Sequence record: OQ174503.1
DNA from: Escherichia phage REP4
Direction: 5' to 3' (one strand)
DNA: 64,000 nt
Shown: positions 4,917 through 33,554 of the stretch, one piece after another
Numbering within the stretch: the first letter of the stretch is position 1
How the letters are laid out: each line of letters opens with the position of its first letter
Translations under genes and position numbers: made by a program
Notes under the pieces: model-generated
What the model saw: only the letters and a program-made list of their open reading frames with translations
Databases searched by the model: none
Told to the model about the DNA's origin: nothing

Positions 4917-6730
4917 TGGTGTTTAACCCTATGCATGATTTCTTTATTTTTGCCAAGATTAAATCCGCGTTCGTTCGGATTTCCCAAATAACCACAAGTT
5001 CTTCTTATTGTGTTCATCTTTTTAGGATCAGTTTCTCCACAAATAGAACAAACAAATCCGTTTTCAGTAGGAGTCATTTCATGGGTACTTCCACACGTAA
5101 AACATTTATCTACTGGCATGTTAACACCAAAATAATCTAAATGTTGTGCAGCATAATCCCATACAGCCTCAAGACCTTTTAGGTTATTTTTCATATCAGG
5201 AAGTTCAACATAAGAAATGTGACCGCCTGTCGCAATGAAATGATATGGGGCTTCGCGAGAAATCTTTTCAAACGGAGTAATATTTTCTTCTACTGAAACG
5301 TGGAAACTGTTGGTGTACCAGCCTTTATCAGTAACATCCTTTACACTTCCATATTTTTCGGTATCAAGTTTACAGAAGCGATAGCACAGGTTTTCAGCAG
5401 GAGTAGAATACAAACTAAAAGCAAAACCAGTTCTTTCAGTCCACTGCTTAAGACGAGCATTCATTTTAGTTAAAATTTCTTGTCCAATATCACGACCGAC
5501 AAGAATATTCAATTCGTGAATACCAATGTATCCTAGGGACACTGAACTTCTACCGTTTTTAAATAACTCAATTATGTCGTCGTCAGGTTTAAGACGAACC
5601 CCGAATGCACCTTCTTGGTAAAGAATAGGAGCAACAGTCGCTTTAACTCCTTTTAAGGAACTAATTCTACACATCAAAGCTTCAAAACATAAATCCATTC
5701 GTTCATTGAACAATTCGGCAAATTTCTGTTCATTGAACTGTGTTCCAGTATAAGAATCTAACGCAATACGAGGAAGATTCAGTGTTACAACACCAAGATT
5801 ATTACGTCCATCAAGAATTTCATTACCAGTCGAATCTTTCCATACACTCAAGAAACTACGACAACCCATTGGAGAAACAGGAATAGATGAACCGGTGATA
5901 GCTTTATTGTTCTTAGCCGAAATGATGTCAGGATACATTCTTTTGCTTGCACACTCTAAAGCAAGCTGCTTAATATCATAGTTCGGATCGTCTTTATAAA
6001 GATTAACACCCTCTTCAACGAACATAACAAGCTTAGGGAAAATAGGAGTTATCCCATCACGACCAAGGCCTTTAATACGATTTTTCAGAATTGCTTTCTG
6101 AATCATTCGTTCAGTCCAGTCAGTTCCCGTACCAAATGTAATTGTTACAAAAGGCGTTTGTCCGTTTGAACTAAAGAGAGTATTTACTTCATATTCATAA
6201 GCTTGGAACGCATCGTATACGTCTTTTTCTGTTTTAGACTGGGCGTAATTCAACGCATCAGCGATTTGCCATTTTTCTGCATCCTCAATATGTTTTGCGT
6301 AGGTGCGTTTAACATAAGGAGAAAGGACTTTATCTACATTCGCAAAAGTCGTTCCGCCATATTGATGGGAAGCAACCTGCGCAGTAATTTGTGCCATAAT
6401 TGCAGTAGCAACGCCAATTGATTTAGGAGTTTCAATCTGTGCATTACCGAGCTTAAATCCGTTCTCAAGCATTCCTTTTAAATCTACTAAACAACAATTA
6501 GTAAATGGAAGAGCAGGAGAATAATCAATATCATGGAAATGGATAATTCCGCTTTCATGCGCTTTCATAATAAAAGACGGGACCATATTTTTGGCAATGT
6601 GTTTAGACACAATACCAGCCATAAGGTCCCGTTGAGTTGGAAAAACACGAGAATCTTTATTAGCATTCTCGTTTAAAAGGTCTTTATTAGTTTTATGAAT
6701 TAATCCTTCAATTTCTTTTTCAATTGTCAT
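4913..6730 (-). CDS. nrdD: anaerobic ribonucleoside-triphosphate reductase, uninterrupted
   Basis: 605 aa; C-terminal glycyl-radical motif RRTCGYLG and Zn-ribbon cysteines; contiguous ORF with no intron. Confidence 0.95.
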   Translation of the reverse strand: MTIEKEIEGLIHKTNKDLLNENANKDSRVFPTQRDLMAGIVSKHIAKNMVPSFIMKAHESGIIHFHDIDYSPALPFTNCCLVDLKGMLENGFKLGNAQIETPKSIGVATAIMAQITAQVASHQYGGTTFANVDKVLSPYVKRTYAKHIEDAEKWQIADALNYAQSKTEKDVYDAFQAYEYEVNTLFSSNGQTPFVTITFGTGTDWTERMIQKAILKNRIKGLGRDGITPIFPKLVMFVEEGVNLYKDDPNYDIKQLALECASKRMYPDIISAKNNKAITGSSIPVSPMGCRSFLSVWKDSTGNEILDGRNNLGVVTLNLPRIALDSYTGTQFNEQKFAELFNERMDLCFEALMCRISSLKGVKATVAPILYQEGAFGVRLKPDDDIIELFKNGRSSVSLGYIGIHELNILVGRDIGQEILTKMNARLKQWTERTGFAFSLYSTPAENLCYRFCKLDTEKYGSVKDVTDKGWYTNSFHVSVEENITPFEKISREAPYHFIATGGHISYVELPDMKNNLKGLEAVWDYAAQHLDYFGVNMPVDKCFTCGSTHEMTPTENGFVCSICGETDPKKMNTIRRTCGYLGNPNERGFNLGKNKEIMHRVKHQ

Positions 6731-7200
6731 TTTAAACTCTTTCTAAGCTGCTTCTTAAATGAAGCTATTAATTGTGTTTTAGTGTCAGATTCATTATATT
6801 CAAATCCTCTTTGAAGCATCTCAGCCATCATTTCCTCTTTTCCTAAACGAGAAAATTCCTTTGATTTATCTCCAACAAAGTTAGGGTGAATATTATTTTG
6901 GGTGTAATCGGATTTTAAATAAGTAAGTAAATTTTCTAACCATTCAAGATAATCAACACCTTGTCCCTTTAAGCCAGAACGATTAAATTTATGCTTCATT
7001 TGACCTTCCGCAGCATTGCAAAGATTACAGAGCAATCCACGCACCTTTCCAGCTTTCGGTCCATTTAATTCATGGTCATGGTCAAGGTGATTAGCTTGAA
7101 CATCAGGATTTAGTTCTCGTTGGCAAATTAAGCATTTACCGTTTTGTGCATCATAAAATTTTTGTTTTTCTTCTTTGTACAATTTGCCAGTCAATAACAT
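6727..7200 (-). CDS. 49: endonuclease VII (Holliday junction resolvase)
   Basis: 157 aa, Zn-binding CxxC...CNLCN and HLDHDH motif; matches T4 gp49 length and sequence. Confidence 0.9.
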   Translation of the reverse strand: MLLTGKLYKEEKQKFYDAQNGKCLICQRELNPDVQANHLDHDHELNGPKAGKVRGLLCNLCNAAEGQMKHKFNRSGLKGQGVDYLEWLENLLTYLKSDYTQNNIHPNFVGDKSKEFSRLGKEEMMAEMLQRGFEYNESDTKTQLIASFKKQLRKSLK

Positions 7201-24532: not shown

Positions 24533-24862
24533 TCAATTAGAAAATAAATTTATCCAAGATTGTTCTTTAATTAAAAATGGCTCAGAATCATATGCCATTA
24601 AACTCTGTGTGATTAGTCCTTTAAAAGGCCCATCAATAAATTCCATAGTAAAATATGGAATTTTATTCATTAGCCGTGCATTAGGAGCCGTGCACAAAAC
24701 TCTGCATCCTTTGAATACGCCTTTTTGTAATTTGTATTGCTTAGGATAAAATTCGCTCAAAATGTTATTTTTTGCTAAAATTTCAAAATGATTCACCAAT
24801 TTATTTTTAATAGTTTTTGGCGAAAAATAGAGATATTCGAAAAGCTGAGTGTCTGTCATCAT
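24533..24862 (-). CDS. hypothetical protein
   Basis: Start refined to [10 protein letters not shown]..., overlapping the stop of the upstream gene. Confidence 0.45.
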
Positions 24863-25398
24863 TGCATTCCGATTACGAAAAACTGTGGACGAGTAATACC
24901 ACCAATGCAACATTTAATATTACAGCAGCAGTGTACAGTGTCAATATGGACACTATAAATCTTATCCATATCAGGAGATTTGACAGGCTCATCAATTATA
25001 TATAAAATTCGCGAAAGCTTTAAACCTCTGAACTTGCTTCCTTTATTACCGATAAAACTGCGCACAGAATCAGTAAATAAACGAAAACGTATATCATCAT
25101 TAGAATAACGCGAAAATTCCTTTTTAATGTTATTTGCAGAAATTTTAGCGTAAGCTGAAGTATTAGAAAGAACAATAACTGTTCCGCCATCATACAACCA
25201 ATTAGCAGCAAAGTTAGTCACAGCAATTGATTTACCGGATTGACGTCCACCGTCTAGTCGAAGTGTGCAATACTGTTTAAGTAATTCTTCAAATGGCGGG
25301 ATATATTCGTTTTTACAAATTTCTTCTACTCTAGCATCAGAATGGTGTGTAAAAGCATTCATCAGGGATAGATAAGGACCAGTTAAAAATGTTCTCAT
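24859..25398 (-). CDS. P-loop NTPase-like protein
   Basis: 179 aa; Walker A-like GGRQSGKS and Walker B-like ILYIIDE. Confidence 0.45.
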   Translation of the reverse strand: MRTFLTGPYLSLMNAFTHHSDARVEEICKNEYIPPFEELLKQYCTLRLDGGRQSGKSIAVTNFAANWLYDGGTVIVLSNTSAYAKISANNIKKEFSRYSNDDIRFRLFTDSVRSFIGNKGSKFRGLKLSRILYIIDEPVKSPDMDKIYSVHIDTVHCCCNIKCCIGGITRPQFFVIGMQ

Positions 25399-25538
25399 TT
25401 CTTCTCTCTAAATTTGGGCCATTCCGTGGCGCATGAATTGTCCATTTCTGTATTTACCCATTACCGCACTTGGGCTCGACCTTATTACAGGTTGGCGGGA
25501 ATCCCTCACAGAATCATGAGGTCCAGGTTGTTCCCATA

Positions 25539-26012
25539 TTATTTGAACGATTTAACGTACTGAATAGAACCTTTACTATTCACGAAAGCGATTTTACCAT
25601 TTTTATTATACATGGTAGCAGTACGCTGATAGCCATAAGTTTGCTTACCAGATTGATAACCAACTAATGCAAAATTATCTTCACCCATTTTATTCTGTTT
25701 AGCGCGAATGCGTTCATGACCATGTGCCATAAGAACCTTAGCATCACCAGTTGCAATGGATCGACGAGTTTTTTCATCTTCAACTGTATTAACAAAGTCG
25801 TCAAATGAATCAAATTTAGCATGAGATTTATTATACAGTTTTCCATCTACTGCATAATTATATCCCTGTACATCCATCTCAACTTCTGTACCATCATCCA
25901 ATACAGCAGTGATTTTCTGTCCTTTTTTAAATTTCAAAAGATCAGTAAAAGATTCAGCAATAATTTGAGAATTAATAGTTGCTTCAGTAATAAATTCTTG
26001 ATATGTTTTCAT
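25539..26012 (-). CDS. internal-protein-like head protein with N-terminal capsid-targeting sequence
   Basis: 157 aa beginning MKTYQEFITEA, the conserved internal-protein leader shared with ipI. Confidence 0.6.
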   Translation of the reverse strand: MKTYQEFITEATINSQIIAESFTDLLKFKKGQKITAVLDDGTEVEMDVQGYNYAVDGKLYNKSHAKFDSFDDFVNTVEDEKTRRSIATGDAKVLMAHGHERIRAKQNKMGEDNFALVGYQSGKQTYGYQRTATMYNKNGKIAFVNSKGSIQYVKSFK

Positions 26013-26028
26013 GTGTATCCTTTAATTT

Positions 26029-26346
26029 TTATTCTTTAGGGAAGTTTTTAGAATATGCATCATAAAGCTTATTTCCAATACGGCGGAAAACTCTAGCCGC
26101 AAAACGATTTTCTGGGTTTTTAATCATGATTTGCATCATATAAGTACCCGCGTCAGAAAGAGCTTCTTCATAGTACCCGTTAATTTCTTTAAGAGTCCTA
26201 CGTTTACCACCAGGACCATCAACAGTGATTTTCCATTTACCTGTAGAAGTGCGACTTGGCGGCTCAACTTGTTCAATCCAGATATAACCGCCTTCTACAC
26301 GTTGTCCTTGGGCAGATTCTGCAATAAATTCTTTAAACGTTTTCAT
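26029..26346 (-). CDS. internal-protein-like head protein with capsid-targeting sequence
   Basis: 105 aa beginning MKTFKEFIAES; early promoter upstream. Confidence 0.6.
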   Translation of the reverse strand: MKTFKEFIAESAQGQRVEGGYIWIEQVEPPSRTSTGKWKITVDGPGGKRRTLKEINGYYEEALSDAGTYMMQIMIKNPENRFAARVFRRIGNKLYDAYSKNFPKE

Positions 26347-26383
26347 ATGGTTCCTTTAAATATTTTAATTAGTAACTATGAAT

Positions 26384-26412
26384 ATACTATCACAGTTCTA
26401 GGAGAAAGTAAA
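26384..26412 (-). promoter_or_regulatory. sigma70-type early promoter (-35 TTTACT, 17 bp, -10 TAGTAT)
   Basis: Promoter-family member at the 3' end of e, driving the internal-protein genes. Confidence 0.5.
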
Positions 26413-26417
26413 CAACT

Positions 26418-27386
<969 letters not shown>

Positions 27387-32533: not shown

Positions 32534-32609
32534 TGGTCGAGGCAGTAGGGATCGAACCTACGACCTAGGACTTAGAAGGTCCTTGCTCTTCCTTCTGAGC
32601 TATGCCCCG
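32534..32609 (-). tRNA. tRNA-Arg (anticodon UCU)
   Basis: Hand-folded cloverleaf: acceptor CGGGGCA/UGCCUCG, anticodon loop CUUCUAA, T-loop UUCGAUC, CCA encoded. Confidence 0.85.
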
Positions 32610-32613
32610 TAAT

Positions 32614-32689
32614 TGGGGTGACCGATGGGAGTCGAACCCATGACTACGAGAATCACAATCTCGAGTTCTACCAACTGAACTACGGCCAC
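32614..32689 (-). tRNA. tRNA-His (anticodon GUG)
   Basis: Acceptor GUGGCCG/CGGUCAC, discriminator C73, anticodon loop UUGUGAU, CCA encoded; base at -1 is U, not G. Confidence 0.75.
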
Positions 32690-32802
32690 ATTAATACCTA
32701 CTCCAACAATCAAGATGTCTTCACACGAAATTAAGAGAAGAGTGATCAGTTCAACCCTATAATCGCGTCAAGTAGATATTAATGTGACAGTTGTCACAAA
32801 TT

Positions 32803-32877
32803 TGGCGGACGTGATAGGATTCGAACCTATAACCAATCGCTTAACAGGCGATCGCTCTGCCATTGAGCTACACATCC
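32803..32877 (-). tRNA. tRNA-Asn (anticodon GUU)
   Basis: Acceptor GGAUGUG/CACGUCC, anticodon loop CUGUUAA, T-loop UUCGAAU, CCA encoded. Confidence 0.75.
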
Positions 32878-32881
32878 AAAT

Positions 32882-32968
32882 TGGTGGGGAGTGATGGAGT
32901 CGAACCACCCGAGTCGCAATGACAATGGATTTACAGTCCACACCGCTACCTCTACGGGATAACTCCCC
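32882..32968 (-). tRNA. tRNA-Tyr (anticodon GUA), long variable arm
   Basis: Acceptor GGGGAGU/ACUCCCC, anticodon loop CUGUAAA, 87 nt with long variable arm. Confidence 0.7.
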
Positions 32969-32981
32969 TTAATTCTTAATT

Positions 32982-33056
32982 TGGTGGCCCTGGGTGGAAT
33001 TGAACCACCATCTGGCGATTATGAGTCGCTTGCTTGAACCTTCCAGCTACAGGGCC
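32982..33056 (-). tRNA. tRNA with anticodon CAU (Ile2-type by T4 synteny, or Met)
   Basis: Acceptor GGCCCUG/CAGGGCC, anticodon loop CUCAUAA, T-loop UUCAAUU; sits where T4 has tRNA-Ile. Confidence 0.7.
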
Positions 33057-33057
33057 T

Positions 33058-33133
33058 TGGTGCTGATTGACGGAATCGAACCGCCGACCTTCTCATTACA
33101 AGTGAGTTGCTCTACCTACTGAGCTAAATCAGC
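33058..33133 (-). tRNA. tRNA-Thr (anticodon UGU)
   Basis: Acceptor GCUGAUU/AAUCAGC, anticodon loop CUUGUAA. Confidence 0.85.
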
Positions 33134-33138
33134 AAAAC

Positions 33139-33228
33139 TGGCGGAGGCGATAGGATTTGAACCTATGAGTCGCCGGAGCGACTGCCGGTTTTCAAGACCG
33201 GTGCATTAAACCACTCTGCCACGCCTCC
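33139..33228 (-). tRNA. tRNA-Ser (anticodon UGA), long variable arm
   Basis: Acceptor GGAGGCG/CGCCUCC, anticodon loop CUUGAAA, 90 nt. Confidence 0.85.
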
Positions 33229-33230
33229 AG

Positions 33231-33304
33231 TCTCCATACAAGGATTTGAACCTTGGACCTCCTGATCCCAAATCAGGCGCTCTACCAAACTGAGCTACAC
33301 GGAG
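33231..33304 (-). tRNA. tRNA-Pro (anticodon UGG), CCA not encoded
   Basis: Acceptor CUCCGUG/UAUGGAG, anticodon loop UUUGGGA; only 2 nt from tRNA-Ser (dimeric precursor). Confidence 0.8.
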
Positions 33305-33314
33305 TAAATTAAAT

Positions 33315-33388
<74 letters not shown>

Positions 33389-33393
33389 AAATT

Positions 33394-33480
33394 TGGTGCG
33401 AGAAGTGGGACTCGAACCCACAAGGAAATCATTCCGCAGCATTTTAAGTGCTGTGCCTTTACCAATTTGACCATTCTCGC
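33394..33480 (-). tRNA. tRNA-Leu (anticodon UAA), long variable arm
   Basis: Acceptor GCGAGAA/UUCUCGC, anticodon loop CUUAAAA, 87 nt. Confidence 0.85.
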
Positions 33481-33481
33481 G

Positions 33482-33554
33482 CTGGGAATAAAGGACTCGA
33501 ACCTTTGCATCCTGGAATCAAAATCCAGTGCCTTACCAACTTGGCTAATTCCCA
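33482..33554 (-). tRNA. tRNA-Gln (anticodon UUG), CCA not encoded
   Basis: Acceptor UGGGAAU/AUUCCCA, anticodon loop UUUUGAU; 1 nt from tRNA-Leu (dimeric precursor). Confidence 0.8.

What the first reader, a model, noticed from the sequence alone, without database searches (positions are those of the whole stretch)
25399..25538. No denV at its expected T4 locus; a short GC-richer structured spacer instead
In T4 the pyrimidine-dimer glycosylase gene denV lies between the vs.x genes and the internal-protein genes upstream of e. Here the P-loop ORF (24859-25398) is followed directly by an ip-like gene (25539-26012), and no ORF in the window resembles DenV. The 140-bp spacer is GC-richer than its surroundings and contains nested inverted repeats (GGGAA...CCUCA-loop-UGAGG...UUCCC) and a 17-codon ORF. 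This predicts T2-like UV sensitivity.
Basis: partly seen in the sequence, partly recalled or inferred. Interest (0 to 1): 0.45.

Follow-up and report, generated by a model that had tools for sequence, protein, structure and literature searches.

The report
Conserved phage RNA element, not denV scar
The UV-repair gene denV is indeed missing, which is ordinary, but the GC-rich "spacer" is a conserved, apparently undescribed structured RNA element that phage T4 also carries (hidden inside an over-long gene annotation) and that many other virulent phages keep beside their tRNA genes.

Summary
The window comes from a T4-like phage (Tequatrovirus; closest record G50, 98-99% identical). There is a 140-bp gap between an internal-protein gene and the vs.8 homologue, with 47% GC against 36% overall, nested inverted repeats, a 17-codon ORF, and no denV.

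T4 itself carries the same sequence next to denV, annotated as the first 40 codons of vs.8, so the spacer does not replace denV. In the nearest denV-bearing relatives denV sits between e and the ip genes. That slot is empty here (26358-26371).

Among 18 T4-like variants the conserved core is read in all three frames, with stop codons, so it is non-coding. Its 47-nt core (25453-25499, minus strand) occurs in about 1,000 phage records: T4-like, rV5-like, phAPEC8-like, Pylas-like, jumbo and other phages. Outside T4-likes it lies on the tRNA strand, usually within 1 kb of a tRNA.

Fifty-three distinct copies support a three-way junction by compensatory changes: 91% of cells are paired against 28-42% for shifted controls. 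It matches no Rfam family, no E. coli genome and no paper searched. The function is unknown. My best guess is a stable structured RNA that binds a conserved partner.

The parts
25399..25538 (-). The 'spacer' as reported. It lies on the transcribed (minus) strand between the stop codon of the ip-like gene and the ATG of vs.8.
   Evidence: GC is 47.1% against 35.6% for the window.
25453..25499 (-). The core module, a three-way junction. It is the only copy in the window.
   Evidence: Covariance model R1 scores it 66.8 bits, E 4e-19; the next best hit in the window is 9.8 bits.
25497..25535 (-). The P1/P2 domain. P1 pairs GGGAA (25531-25535) with UUCCC (25497-25501). P2 pairs CCUCAU (25516-25521) with GUGAGG (25504-25509).
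   Evidence: Pairs are listed. Relatives keep the helices with different letters (GGGAG/CUCCC, AAAGG/CCUUU, GGGG/CCCC, GGAAC/GUUCC, GAGUG/CACUC, GUGUAU/AUACAC; P2 U.G becomes U-A in T4). My own statistic for P1 is weak, z about 2.7.
25456..25496 (-). Px, the closing helix of the junction. Strand 25493-25496 pairs with 25456-25458 and 25460; the invariant bulged G is at 25459.
   Evidence: The three inner pairs are canonical in all 53 distinct sequences, with 3-5 pair types each.
25479..25492 (-). Pa hairpin: ACCU[GUAAUA]AGGU, a 4-bp stem with a GNRA-like hexaloop.
   Evidence: The closing pair is A-U in 48, G-C in 3 and C-G in 2 sequences. One divergent copy has ACCA[GUAA]UGGU.
25466..25475 (-). 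Pc mini-hairpin: GCC[CAA]G(U)GC, three pairs with one variable bulged base.
   Evidence: The middle pair is C-G in 38 and U-A in 14 sequences, and differs between tandem or sister copies (L054a/b, L028b/L032b).
25461..25465 (-). Invariant junction strand GGUAA, between Pc and the 3' strand of Px.
   Evidence: Invariant in alignment A2.
25418..25430 (-). A 3' block found only in T4-likes: GCCA[CGGAA]UGGC, 20 nt upstream of the vs.8 ATG.
   Evidence: Conserved in T4-like variants but without compensatory change, so it is not shown to be a helix.
25408..25410 (-). A TAG in frame with vs.8, three codons upstream of its ATG. It ends the 17-codon and 33-codon ORFs of the spacer.
24859..25398 (-). 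vs.8 homologue (179 aa, Walker-A-like GGRQSGKS). It is the gene downstream of the element in every T4-like locus that holds enough sequence.
   Evidence: PHROG 1488: profile positions 2-177 of 177 match residues 3-179. Synteny is shown.
25539..26012 (-). ip-like gene (157 aa) that abuts the element, where T4 has denV.
   Evidence: PHROG 3155 and DUF7412.
26358..26371 (-). The empty denV slot of this lineage. 14 nt (TAATTAAAATATTT) stand where A2 and teqhal carry the 414-bp denV cassette.
   Evidence: Alignment; annotations.

Best explanation
The 140 bp are not a scar or filler left by the loss of denV. They hold a conserved, non-coding, structured RNA element, read from the minus strand as part of the transcript that runs from the ip genes into vs.8.

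The element has a 5' hairpin domain (P1/P2). This abuts a compact three-way junction made of a short closing helix Px with an invariant bulged G, a 4-bp hairpin Pa with a GNRA-like loop, a 3-bp mini-hairpin Pc, and the invariant joining strands C-N-A and GGUAA.

The same module sits in the tRNA gene arrays of many unrelated virulent phages. In some of these it has its own terminator, and in others it is bracketed by long complementary arms. I therefore think it works as an RNA in its own right: a small stable RNA, or an RNA domain released from a longer transcript, whose invariant junction and loop bind a conserved partner (a host or phage protein, an RNA or a small ligand), probably in tRNA or translation biology. 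In T4-likes it doubles as the leader of vs.8.

Shown: conservation, non-coding nature, strand, secondary structure, association with tRNA genes, and the absence of denV.
Inferred: that the RNA is stable or released, that it acts in trans, and what it binds.
For: (1) It is the same sequence as in T4. T4 annotates it as codons 1-40 of vs.8, and homology with the window stops at the upstream stop codon.

(2) It is non-coding. In 18 T4-like variants the invariant core is read in all three frames relative to the vs.8 ATG, and only 3 of the 18 are open for 45 or more codons upstream of it. The PHROG 1488 profile is 177 positions long and matches the short 179-aa protein end to end.

(3) It is widespread. 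About 1,000 of 50,697 phage records hold it. The core is 93-95% identical in rV5-like phages and PsgM04F, whose flanks are unrelated.

(4) The structure is supported. On 45 distinct sequences, and again on 53, 91% of cells are paired against 26-43% for slid controls. The covariation score is 0.41-0.43 against 0.04-0.11, and 0 of 500 shuffles reach it. Seven to eight of the 12 pairs have changes on both sides.

(5) Strand and context are consistent. In 10 of 13 non-T4 classes a tRNA gene lies 27-1023 nt away on the same strand, and every tRNA in these loci is on the element's strand.

(6) No protein family recurs next to it across classes.

(7) Terminator-like hairpins with U runs follow it directly in L060 and L061 (read by eye). 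A sigma-70 promoter lies upstream of the whole array and long complementary arms flank the element in L030.

(8) There is a single copy per genome.
Against: I have no expression, end-mapping or stability data for this RNA.

The comparative structure is thermodynamically weak for this sequence: -17.5 kcal/mol against an MFE of -30.7, and the MFE itself is no better than shuffles. The helices are only 3-5 bp, so the fold would need tertiary contacts or a partner.

I derived the structure from the same sequences on which it was counted, which inflates the comparison with slid controls.

Much of the core is invariant and therefore says nothing about pairing.

Many carrier phages infect the same hosts (enterobacteria). 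The high identity may partly reflect recent exchange rather than strong constraint.

In T4-likes the element is 7 kb from the tRNA cluster and always just upstream of vs.8, which would equally fit a cis-acting leader.

The absence of a published description was checked only against Rfam 15 and the open-access text library.
Confidence: 0.65

Rival explanations
1. The element is a cis-acting leader of vs.8, either a riboswitch or a protein-binding translational operator. The junction binds a ligand or protein and so controls translation or stability of the vs.8 message.
For: In every T4-like locus with enough sequence the element lies directly upstream of a vs.8 homologue, across genera whose Vs.8 proteins share only 37-60% identity. 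The one exception has an ip gene inserted between them. A conserved block GCCA-NGGAA-UGGC lies 20 nt before the ATG. An invariant junction closed by a short helix is typical of an aptamer.
Against: Outside T4-likes no vs.8 homologue is near the element and no other protein family recurs there. In rV5-like phages a consensus sigma-70 promoter separates it from the next CDS. In L060 and L061 a terminator-like hairpin follows it. In several arrays the next gene is a tRNA. I found no conserved alternative pairing with the ribosome-binding site.
Confidence: 0.17
2. It is a DNA-level element: a recombination junction or mobile regulatory cassette that shuffles gene modules, or the target of a homing endonuclease. 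Its conservation would then be at the DNA level.
For: The element sits exactly at the border of a hypervariable region. Across relatives, ip genes and denV come and go immediately upstream of it, and homology breaks at its 5' edge. T4-type genomes are known, from my own recollection of Arbiol et al. 2010 which I did not check here, to carry mobile promoter-stem-loop cassettes at module borders.
Against: Compensatory base changes in three helices point to selection on an RNA or single-strand fold, not on a duplex site. The orientation always matches the local transcription and tRNA strand. No promoter or terminator consensus is found in or next to it in the window.
Confidence: 0.07
3. It is the 5' coding part of a longer Vs.8 protein, as annotated in T4 (219 aa), knocked out here by an in-frame TAG. 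The window would then carry a truncated or N-terminally shortened vs.8.
For: In T4 the frame is open from an ATG inside P2 through to vs.8. In the window the same frame is open for 33 codons and ends in a TAG three codons before the ATG.
Against: Only 3 of 18 variants keep a long open frame. The others are frame-shifted or carry one to four stops, yet the nucleotides stay conserved. The family profile covers only the short protein. The same core occurs in tRNA arrays with no ORF at all.
Confidence: 0.03
4. This is the reader's view: the spacer is what remains at the place from which denV was lost.
For: In T4 and many T4-likes denV does end 48-65 nt upstream of the core.
Against: The whole 140 bp is present, 93-98% identical, in phages that have denV, T4 included. 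No part of it resembles denV. In the closest relatives the denV presence/absence difference maps 0.8 kb away.
Confidence: 0.01

Closest known systems
T4 stable RNAs rnaC and rnaD (species 1 and 2 RNAs)
   Same: They are small, non-tRNA RNAs of unknown function encoded by a T4-type phage, lying with the tRNA genes on the same strand. A 2022 T4 omics paper still calls them RNAs of unknown function (PMC9697503). In other phages the present element occupies the same kind of place.
   Different: There is no sequence or structure relation: model R1 finds nothing in the T4 tRNA/rnaC/rnaD region. rnaC and rnaD have tRNA-like 3' parts, and this element does not. In T4-likes this element lies 7 kb from the tRNA cluster.
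Lambda-type boxB hairpin of nut sites (N antitermination)
   Same: Pa is NCCU[G-Y-R-R-N-A]AGGN', for example CCCUGUGAAAAGGG in L046. It resembles boxB, GCCCUGAAAAAGGGC as I recall it, which is a short G-C stem with a GNRA-like purine loop. Some tRNA-array versions are flanked by boxA-like UGCUCUU.
   Different: The loop has six bases rather than five. Pa is one arm of a junction whose other parts are equally invariant. The window has no boxA and no N-like protein is known in these phages. This is a resemblance from memory only and was not tested.
Large ornate RNAs GOLLD and ROOL, and HDV-like 'theta' ribozymes, found next to phage tRNA genes
   Same: They are structured non-coding RNAs whose only consistent genomic neighbour is a phage tRNA gene. 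This is from my own knowledge; GOLLD and ROOL are described in PMC12286853, which was listed but which I did not read.
   Different: Those are Rfam families or have defined folds, and no Rfam family matches here at E up to 10. This element is far smaller than GOLLD or ROOL and lacks the nested double pseudoknot of HDV-like ribozymes.
T4 DenV (endonuclease V, pyrimidine-dimer glycosylase)
   Same: It is the gene that flanks the element in T4 and in many T4-likes.
   Different: It is absent here. The element is unrelated to it.

Membership tests
DenV / T4 endonuclease V | A protein of about 138 aa alignable to T4 DenV over most of its length | tested here: not met
   tblastn of T4 DenV against the window gives no hit except the C-terminal part of the 157-aa ORF at 6727-7200, which I take to be EndoVII/gp49 (49 aa, E 5e-4). 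The positive control, A2, gives E 8e-74. There is no hit for T4-type or A2-type DenV in the rest of the G50 genome.
Vs.8 protein, long form as annotated in T4 (219 aa) | The upstream 40 codons are translated: the frame is kept open and conserved among relatives | tested here: not met
   The core is read in three different frames, and only 3 of 18 T4-like variants keep a long open frame. The window has a TAG at 25408-25410. The PHROG 1488 profile (177 positions) spans only the short form.
Any Rfam 15 family (riboswitches, ribozymes, tRNA-like RNAs, phage RNAs) | A covariance-model match at or near the gathering score | tested here: not met
   There is no match inside 25399-25538 at E up to 10. 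In six loci from other phages only tRNA-type models match, and nothing matches at the element.
tRNA or tmRNA | A cloverleaf recognised by ARAGORN | tested here: not met
   The 11 tRNAs of the window all lie at 32534-33554, and none is at the element.
Riboswitch or cis-regulatory leader | The same class of downstream gene across carriers, and an expression platform that competes with the aptamer | tested here: not met
   The downstream gene is constant only within T4-likes. Elsewhere it is a tRNA, a promoter or a terminator-like hairpin, and no vs.8 homologue is nearby.
Riboswitch or cis-regulatory leader | Binding of a ligand or protein | not testable with these tools
   This needs in-line probing or binding assays.
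Intrinsic terminator or sigma-70 promoter | A G+C-rich hairpin followed by a T run, or a -35/-10 pair | tested here: not met
   No terminator-like site was found anywhere in 25200-26500, and no promoter-like site lies within or adjacent to the element.
Host-derived sequence, or an antisense or mimic of a host RNA | Similarity to the E. coli genome on either strand | tested here: not met
   blastn against 5,426 complete E. coli genomes gives no match at E up to 10. The strict core pattern is absent from 185,579 bacterial and archaeal species genomes. With the relaxed pattern only one convincing copy appears, on a Pseudomonas serbica megaplasmid. Matches shorter than about 20 nt would be missed.
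Lambda nut (boxA + boxB) | A boxA sequence next to a boxB hairpin, and an N-type antiterminator protein | not tested
   Only a by-eye resemblance of Pa to boxB. I saw no boxA in the window element, and boxA-like UGCUCUU occurs only in the siphovirus arrays.

The most novel reading that the evidence does not exclude
A previously unrecognised family of functional phage RNA: a roughly 45-nt three-way-junction module with an invariant core. T4 and about 1,000 sequenced virulent phages carry it, and it is a regular member of phage tRNA gene arrays. It could act as an aptamer, a small ribozyme, or a decoy or cofactor in the contest over host translation and tRNA-directed defence. In T4 it has been hidden for decades inside the annotated vs.8 reading frame.
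Probability: 0.45. Interest if true: 0.8.

Novelty: new member of a known kind. Interest (0 to 1): 0.6.

Why it matters
The absence of denV is routine: many T4-like phages lack it. It matters only for predicting UV sensitivity of this isolate.

The spacer is the valuable part, for three reasons.
- T4 is among the best-studied genomes, yet this element appears to have been read as protein-coding. Correcting that changes the annotation of vs.8 in hundreds of records.
- A 47-nt module has an invariant core and covarying helices, is shared by at least a dozen phage lineages, and has tRNA genes as its only constant neighbour. That is the signature of an RNA with a specific molecular partner.
- Phage tRNA arrays are now studied as counter-defence against host tRNA nucleases. 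An unexplained RNA riding in those arrays is a directly testable lead, because T4 genetics, CRISPR editing and RNA probing are all routine.

Tried and rejected
- **Single-sequence folding** of the 140 nt on both strands was no better than shuffles. The MFE's long-range pairing (CAUGAUUCUGU with ACAGAA...UCAUG) is lost in T4 without compensation, so I rejected it.
- **Rfam** at permissive thresholds gave nothing.
- **RNAalifold on T4-like sequences** proposed pairing of the core GYGCG with a downstream YGYGC. I rejected it because the two variable positions are not partners, the variable core base is the bulge of Pc in all classes, and other classes lack the 3' partner.
- **An earlier by-eye model**, a local helix GAGCC/GGYUC closing a 12-nt loop, was given up in favour of Px plus Pc once more diverse copies showed C-G/U-A covariation inside it.
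- **A link to vs.8 outside T4-likes** was sought with tblastn and none was found. All-against-all comparison of neighbouring ORFs across 14 classes found no shared family in more than three related classes.
- **Host origin or antisense** was tested against E. coli genomes and bacterial species genomes, with no result.
- **'Campylobacter phage' hits** turned out to be 137-143-kb records whose element matches the rV5-like naswa at 92-94% over the whole 71-nt query, so I take them to be rV5-like and not evidence of deep host range.
- **T4 rnaC and rnaD** are unrelated.
- **Literature**: no paper holds the core sequence as text, and keyword searches found no description.
- **My own statistic for the P1 hairpin** was weak: mean helix 5.9 against 5.5 bp in shuffles.
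- **Resemblances recalled from memory** are the SRP Alu UGUAAU turn, the twister P4 loop, RNase P J11/12, and the 16S 530 and 690 loops. I considered these string coincidences, since none is supported by Rfam models and the covariation places UGUAAU in a hairpin loop.

Full report
**What is there.** The window is from a T4-like phage. The 3 kb around the finding is 99.3% identical to Escherichia phage vB_EcoM_G50 (Tequatrovirus), and 25 kb around it is 98.2% identical, so the exact source genome is not in the collection. All genes here are on the minus strand:
- e (lysozyme), 26418-26912
- an ip-like gene of 105 aa, 26029-26346
- an ip-like gene of 157 aa, 25539-26012 (PHROG 3155 'internal virion protein', DUF7412)
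- the 140-bp gap, 25399-25538
- a 179-aa P-loop ORF, 24859-25398, which is the homologue of T4 vs.8 (PHROG 1488)
- vs.7 and the GrcA-like vs.6

The gap is 47.1% GC in a 35.6% GC window, placing it in the top 1.45% of 140-nt windows.

**denV.** T4 DenV finds nothing in the window by tblastn except a short similarity (49 aa, E 5e-4) to the C-terminal part of the 157-aa ORF at 6727-7200. I recognise that ORF by its sequence as EndoVII/gp49. The control locus with denV scores E 8e-74. The window corresponds to G50 positions 36,588-101,029. The rest of G50 (1-40,000 and 95,000-167,728) also has no DenV homologue of either the T4 or the A2 type.

In the nearest relatives that have denV (Shigella phage A2, phage teqhal), however, the gene lies between e and the 105-aa ip gene. 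The difference from the window is a clean 414-bp cassette, and 14 nt (26358-26371) stand in its place.

Across 36 T4-like loci, 30 gave a DenV hit upstream of the element, most within 1.5 kb. In L006 the hit is only a 42-residue fragment. Often denV directly abuts the element, as in T4. No hit was found in six loci, including this window. DenV homologues occur in 1,119 phage records. Missing denV is therefore real but ordinary. The UV phenotype is a reasonable inference that cannot be tested here.

**The spacer is not a replacement for denV.** T4 carries the same sequence. Its annotated vs.8 (219 aa) begins 40 codons upstream of the methionine that starts the window's ORF, and those 40 codons are the spacer: T4 reads MRDSRQPVIRSSPSAVMGKYRNGQFMCHGMAQTYRAYREEM-RTFLTG..., and the window reads VRDSRQPVIRSSPSAVMGKYRNGQFMRHGMAQI*REEM-RTFLTG.... 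DNA homology between T4 and the window stops at or within a base of the stop codon of the upstream gene, which is denV in T4 and the ip gene here.

**The region is not coding.** A2 is frame-shifted and teqhal has several stops. In 18 distinct T4-like variants the invariant core is read in all three frames relative to the vs.8 ATG (...PVIRSSPSAV......PTCNKVEPKCG......ANL**GRAQVR*...). Only three variants are open for 45 or more codons upstream of the ATG. The PHROG 1488 profile has 177 positions and matches the 179-aa form end to end. The T4 annotation of the long form is very probably an artefact of taking the longest ORF.

**Distribution.** The 140 nt match 1,031 phage records. Nucleotides 40-83 of the minus-strand sequence also match, at 93-95%, phages unrelated to T4: rV5-like Vequintavirus (naswa, APECc02 and others) and the 151-kb phage PsgM04F. 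In both the match is intergenic and sits in or next to a tRNA cluster on the tRNA strand.

Pattern scans of IMG/VR and of metagenomes, followed by a covariance-model search, added further carriers. These include 46-kb siphovirus-like contigs, Pylas-like 70-kb phages, phAPEC8-like 150-kb phages, a 360-kb jumbo phage and several further classes.

The 'Campylobacter phage' records among the hits are 137-143 kb. Their element matches the rV5-like naswa at 92-94% over the whole 71-nt query, so I take them to be rV5-like.

The strict core pattern is absent from 185,579 bacterial and archaeal species genomes. A relaxed pattern gave six hits, about the number expected by chance. Only one, on a 1.06-Mb Pseudomonas serbica plasmid, scores as a real copy at 51.5 bits. 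There is no similarity to 5,426 complete E. coli genomes on either strand. The element belongs to virulent phages rather than to hosts or prophages.

**Context outside T4-likes.**
- In 10 of 13 classes a tRNA gene lies 27-1023 nt from the element on the same strand.
- Every tRNA in these loci is on the element's strand.
- No vs.8 homologue and no other protein family recurs beside it.
- In L060 it is the last gene of a ten-tRNA array and is followed, by my reading of the sequence, by a hairpin with a U run. L061 shows the same.
- In rV5-like phages a consensus sigma-70 promoter for the next gene follows it.
- In the 46-kb contigs the whole array follows a consensus promoter. There the element is bracketed by 17-18-nt complementary arms of the kind that RNase III cuts; that it is cut is my inference.

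These features fit a discrete RNA product rather than a regulator of one particular gene.

**Structure.** The more divergent copies revealed which positions co-vary. I derived the model by eye. Read 5' to 3' it is:
- Px 5' strand
- Pa = N-CCU[G-Y-R-R-N-A]AGG-N'
- joining strand C-(N)-A
- Pc = G-Y-C[NNN]G-(N)-R-C
- joining strand GGUAA
- Px 3' strand, with an invariant bulged G after its first base

On 45 distinct sequences 91.1% of cells are standard pairs, against 26-43% when the 3' partners are slid by 1-3 columns. The covariation score is 0.412 against 0.05-0.11, and 0 of 500 shuffles reach it.

With the metagenomic copies (53 distinct sequences, aligned by the model) the figures are:

| Measure | Structure | Slid controls |
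|---|---|---|
| Cells paired | 91.3% | 28-42% |
| Covariation score | 0.429 | 0.04-0.11 |
| Pairs changed on both sides | 8 of 12 | 2-5 |

Individual pairs in the same set:

| Pair | Pair types observed |
|---|---|
| Px inner pair 1 | AU 27, UA 15, CG 6, UG 5 |
| Px inner pair 2 | CG 37, GC 7, UA 5, AU 3, GU 1 |
| Px inner pair 3 | CG 35, GC 12, AU 6 |
| Pa closing pair | AU 48, GC 3, CG 2 |
| Pc middle pair | CG 38, UA 14 |

The three inner Px pairs are canonical in all 53 sequences. The Pc middle pair differs between the tandem copies L054a and L054b and between the sister copies L028b and L032b, so it changed more than once. One divergent copy replaces the Pa hexaloop with a GUAA tetraloop and swaps a stem pair from U-A to A-U, which supports a GNRA-like loop.

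Upstream, a hairpin P1, often enclosing a second hairpin P2, ends right at Px in every class, with unrelated sequences: GGGAA/UUCCC, GGGAG/CUCCC, AAAGG/CCUUU, GGGG/CCCC, GGAAC/GUUCC, GAGUG/CACUC, GAAUG/CAUUC, GUGUAU/AUACAC. My attempt at a statistic for P1 was only weakly positive.

The window has one copy (25453-25499, 66.8 bits, E 4e-19). T4 has one, inside annotated vs.8, and none in its tRNA/rnaC/rnaD region. The rest of G50 has none.

**Cautions.**
- The structure was derived from the sequences on which it was then counted.
- Much of the core never varies.
- The helices are short.
- For this sequence the comparative fold is worth -17.5 kcal/mol against an MFE of -30.7, although the MFE's long-range pairing is not kept in T4.
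- Such a junction would need tertiary contacts or a bound partner.
- There are no expression data.

**What it most likely is.** I read it as a structured RNA module with a specific partner. In phage tRNA arrays it is made as a small stable RNA. In T4-likes it is carried in the transcript between the variable ip/denV region and vs.8.

The main rival is a cis-acting leader of vs.8. Strict synteny in T4-likes favours this, and every other lineage argues against it.

A DNA-level role at a recombination border is possible. The element sits exactly where gene content changes. Such a role does not explain the compensatory changes or the constant strand.

**Comparison with what is known.** No Rfam 15 family matches. 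No paper in the searchable library contains the core sequence, and keyword searches found no description. A 2022 T4 omics paper discusses only RNAC and RNAD as T4's small RNAs.

The closest analogues in kind are T4 rnaC and rnaD and other orphan RNAs that ride in phage tRNA clusters. Pa resembles a lambda boxB hairpin, but that is a recollection and was not tested.

I file the element as a new family within a known kind, namely orphan structured RNAs of phages. The function is unknown, and the claim of novelty is limited by what could be searched.

Noticed in passing
T4 record NC_000866 64253-64912 (L004 2254-2913); window 25399-25509: The T4 vs.8 CDS (NP_049732, 219 aa) is probably annotated 40 codons too long. 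The real start is the ATG of MRTFLTG. Hundreds of related records differ in how they call this gene: 167, 179, 200 or 219 aa.
   Followed up: yes
window 6727-7200 (hit at 6742-6888): The C-terminal part of a 157-aa ORF, which I recognise as EndoVII/gp49, gives the only sub-threshold tblastn hit to DenV: 41% identity over 49 aa, E 5e-4.
   Followed up: partly
window 26384-26413: An early-promoter-like GTTTAC-17 nt-TAGTAT lies just downstream of e and just upstream of the empty denV slot, and is shared with denV-bearing relatives. I read this by eye only; the consensus scan did not flag it.
   Followed up: partly
L030 1930-2330 (46-kb siphovirus-like contig); also L018, L023, L034: Upstream of the tRNA genes lies a chain of RNA units. 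Each is bracketed by complementary 17-18-nt arms (CACAACAGGUAAGAGCA / UGCUCUUAUCGUUGUG) that contain a boxA-like UGCUCUU. One unit (L030 2218-2330) has two T-arm-like hairpins but is not called as a tRNA.
   Followed up: no
L030 2120-2200: This unit of the array is 96% identical over 79 nt to unannotated DNA of phages HK620 and HK633, and 100% identical in several 48-50-kb phages. It may be a second shared non-coding element.
   Followed up: no
L028 5093-5250, L032 9021-9179, L100 363-521 (T4-like); L054 830-961, L076 2108-2239: Tandem duplicate copies of the module, about 85-115 nt apart. The second copy is more divergent, with a shorter Pc.
   Followed up: partly
L069 1314-1360 (Pseudomonas serbica, 1.06-Mb plasmid): This is the only convincing copy outside phage sequence (51.5 bits). 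No tRNA lies within the 8 kb held.
   Followed up: partly
L013 3582-3680 (naswa); L020 9535-9610 (Pylas-like): ARAGORN calls a tRNA with a four-base anticodon in the rV5-like phage. In the Pylas-like phage it calls a tRNA with a CUA anticodon, which would read amber codons.
   Followed up: no
window 32534-33554: The tRNA cluster has 11 genes, including His, Asn, Tyr and Met, against 8 in T4. No segB-like gene interruption was looked for.
   Followed up: no
window 25418-25430: The block GCCA-CGGAA-UGGC, with GGA in the putative loop, is conserved in all T4-like variants 20 nt upstream of the vs.8 ATG. No covariation was seen. It could be a protein-binding or processing site separate from the junction module.
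   Followed up: partly
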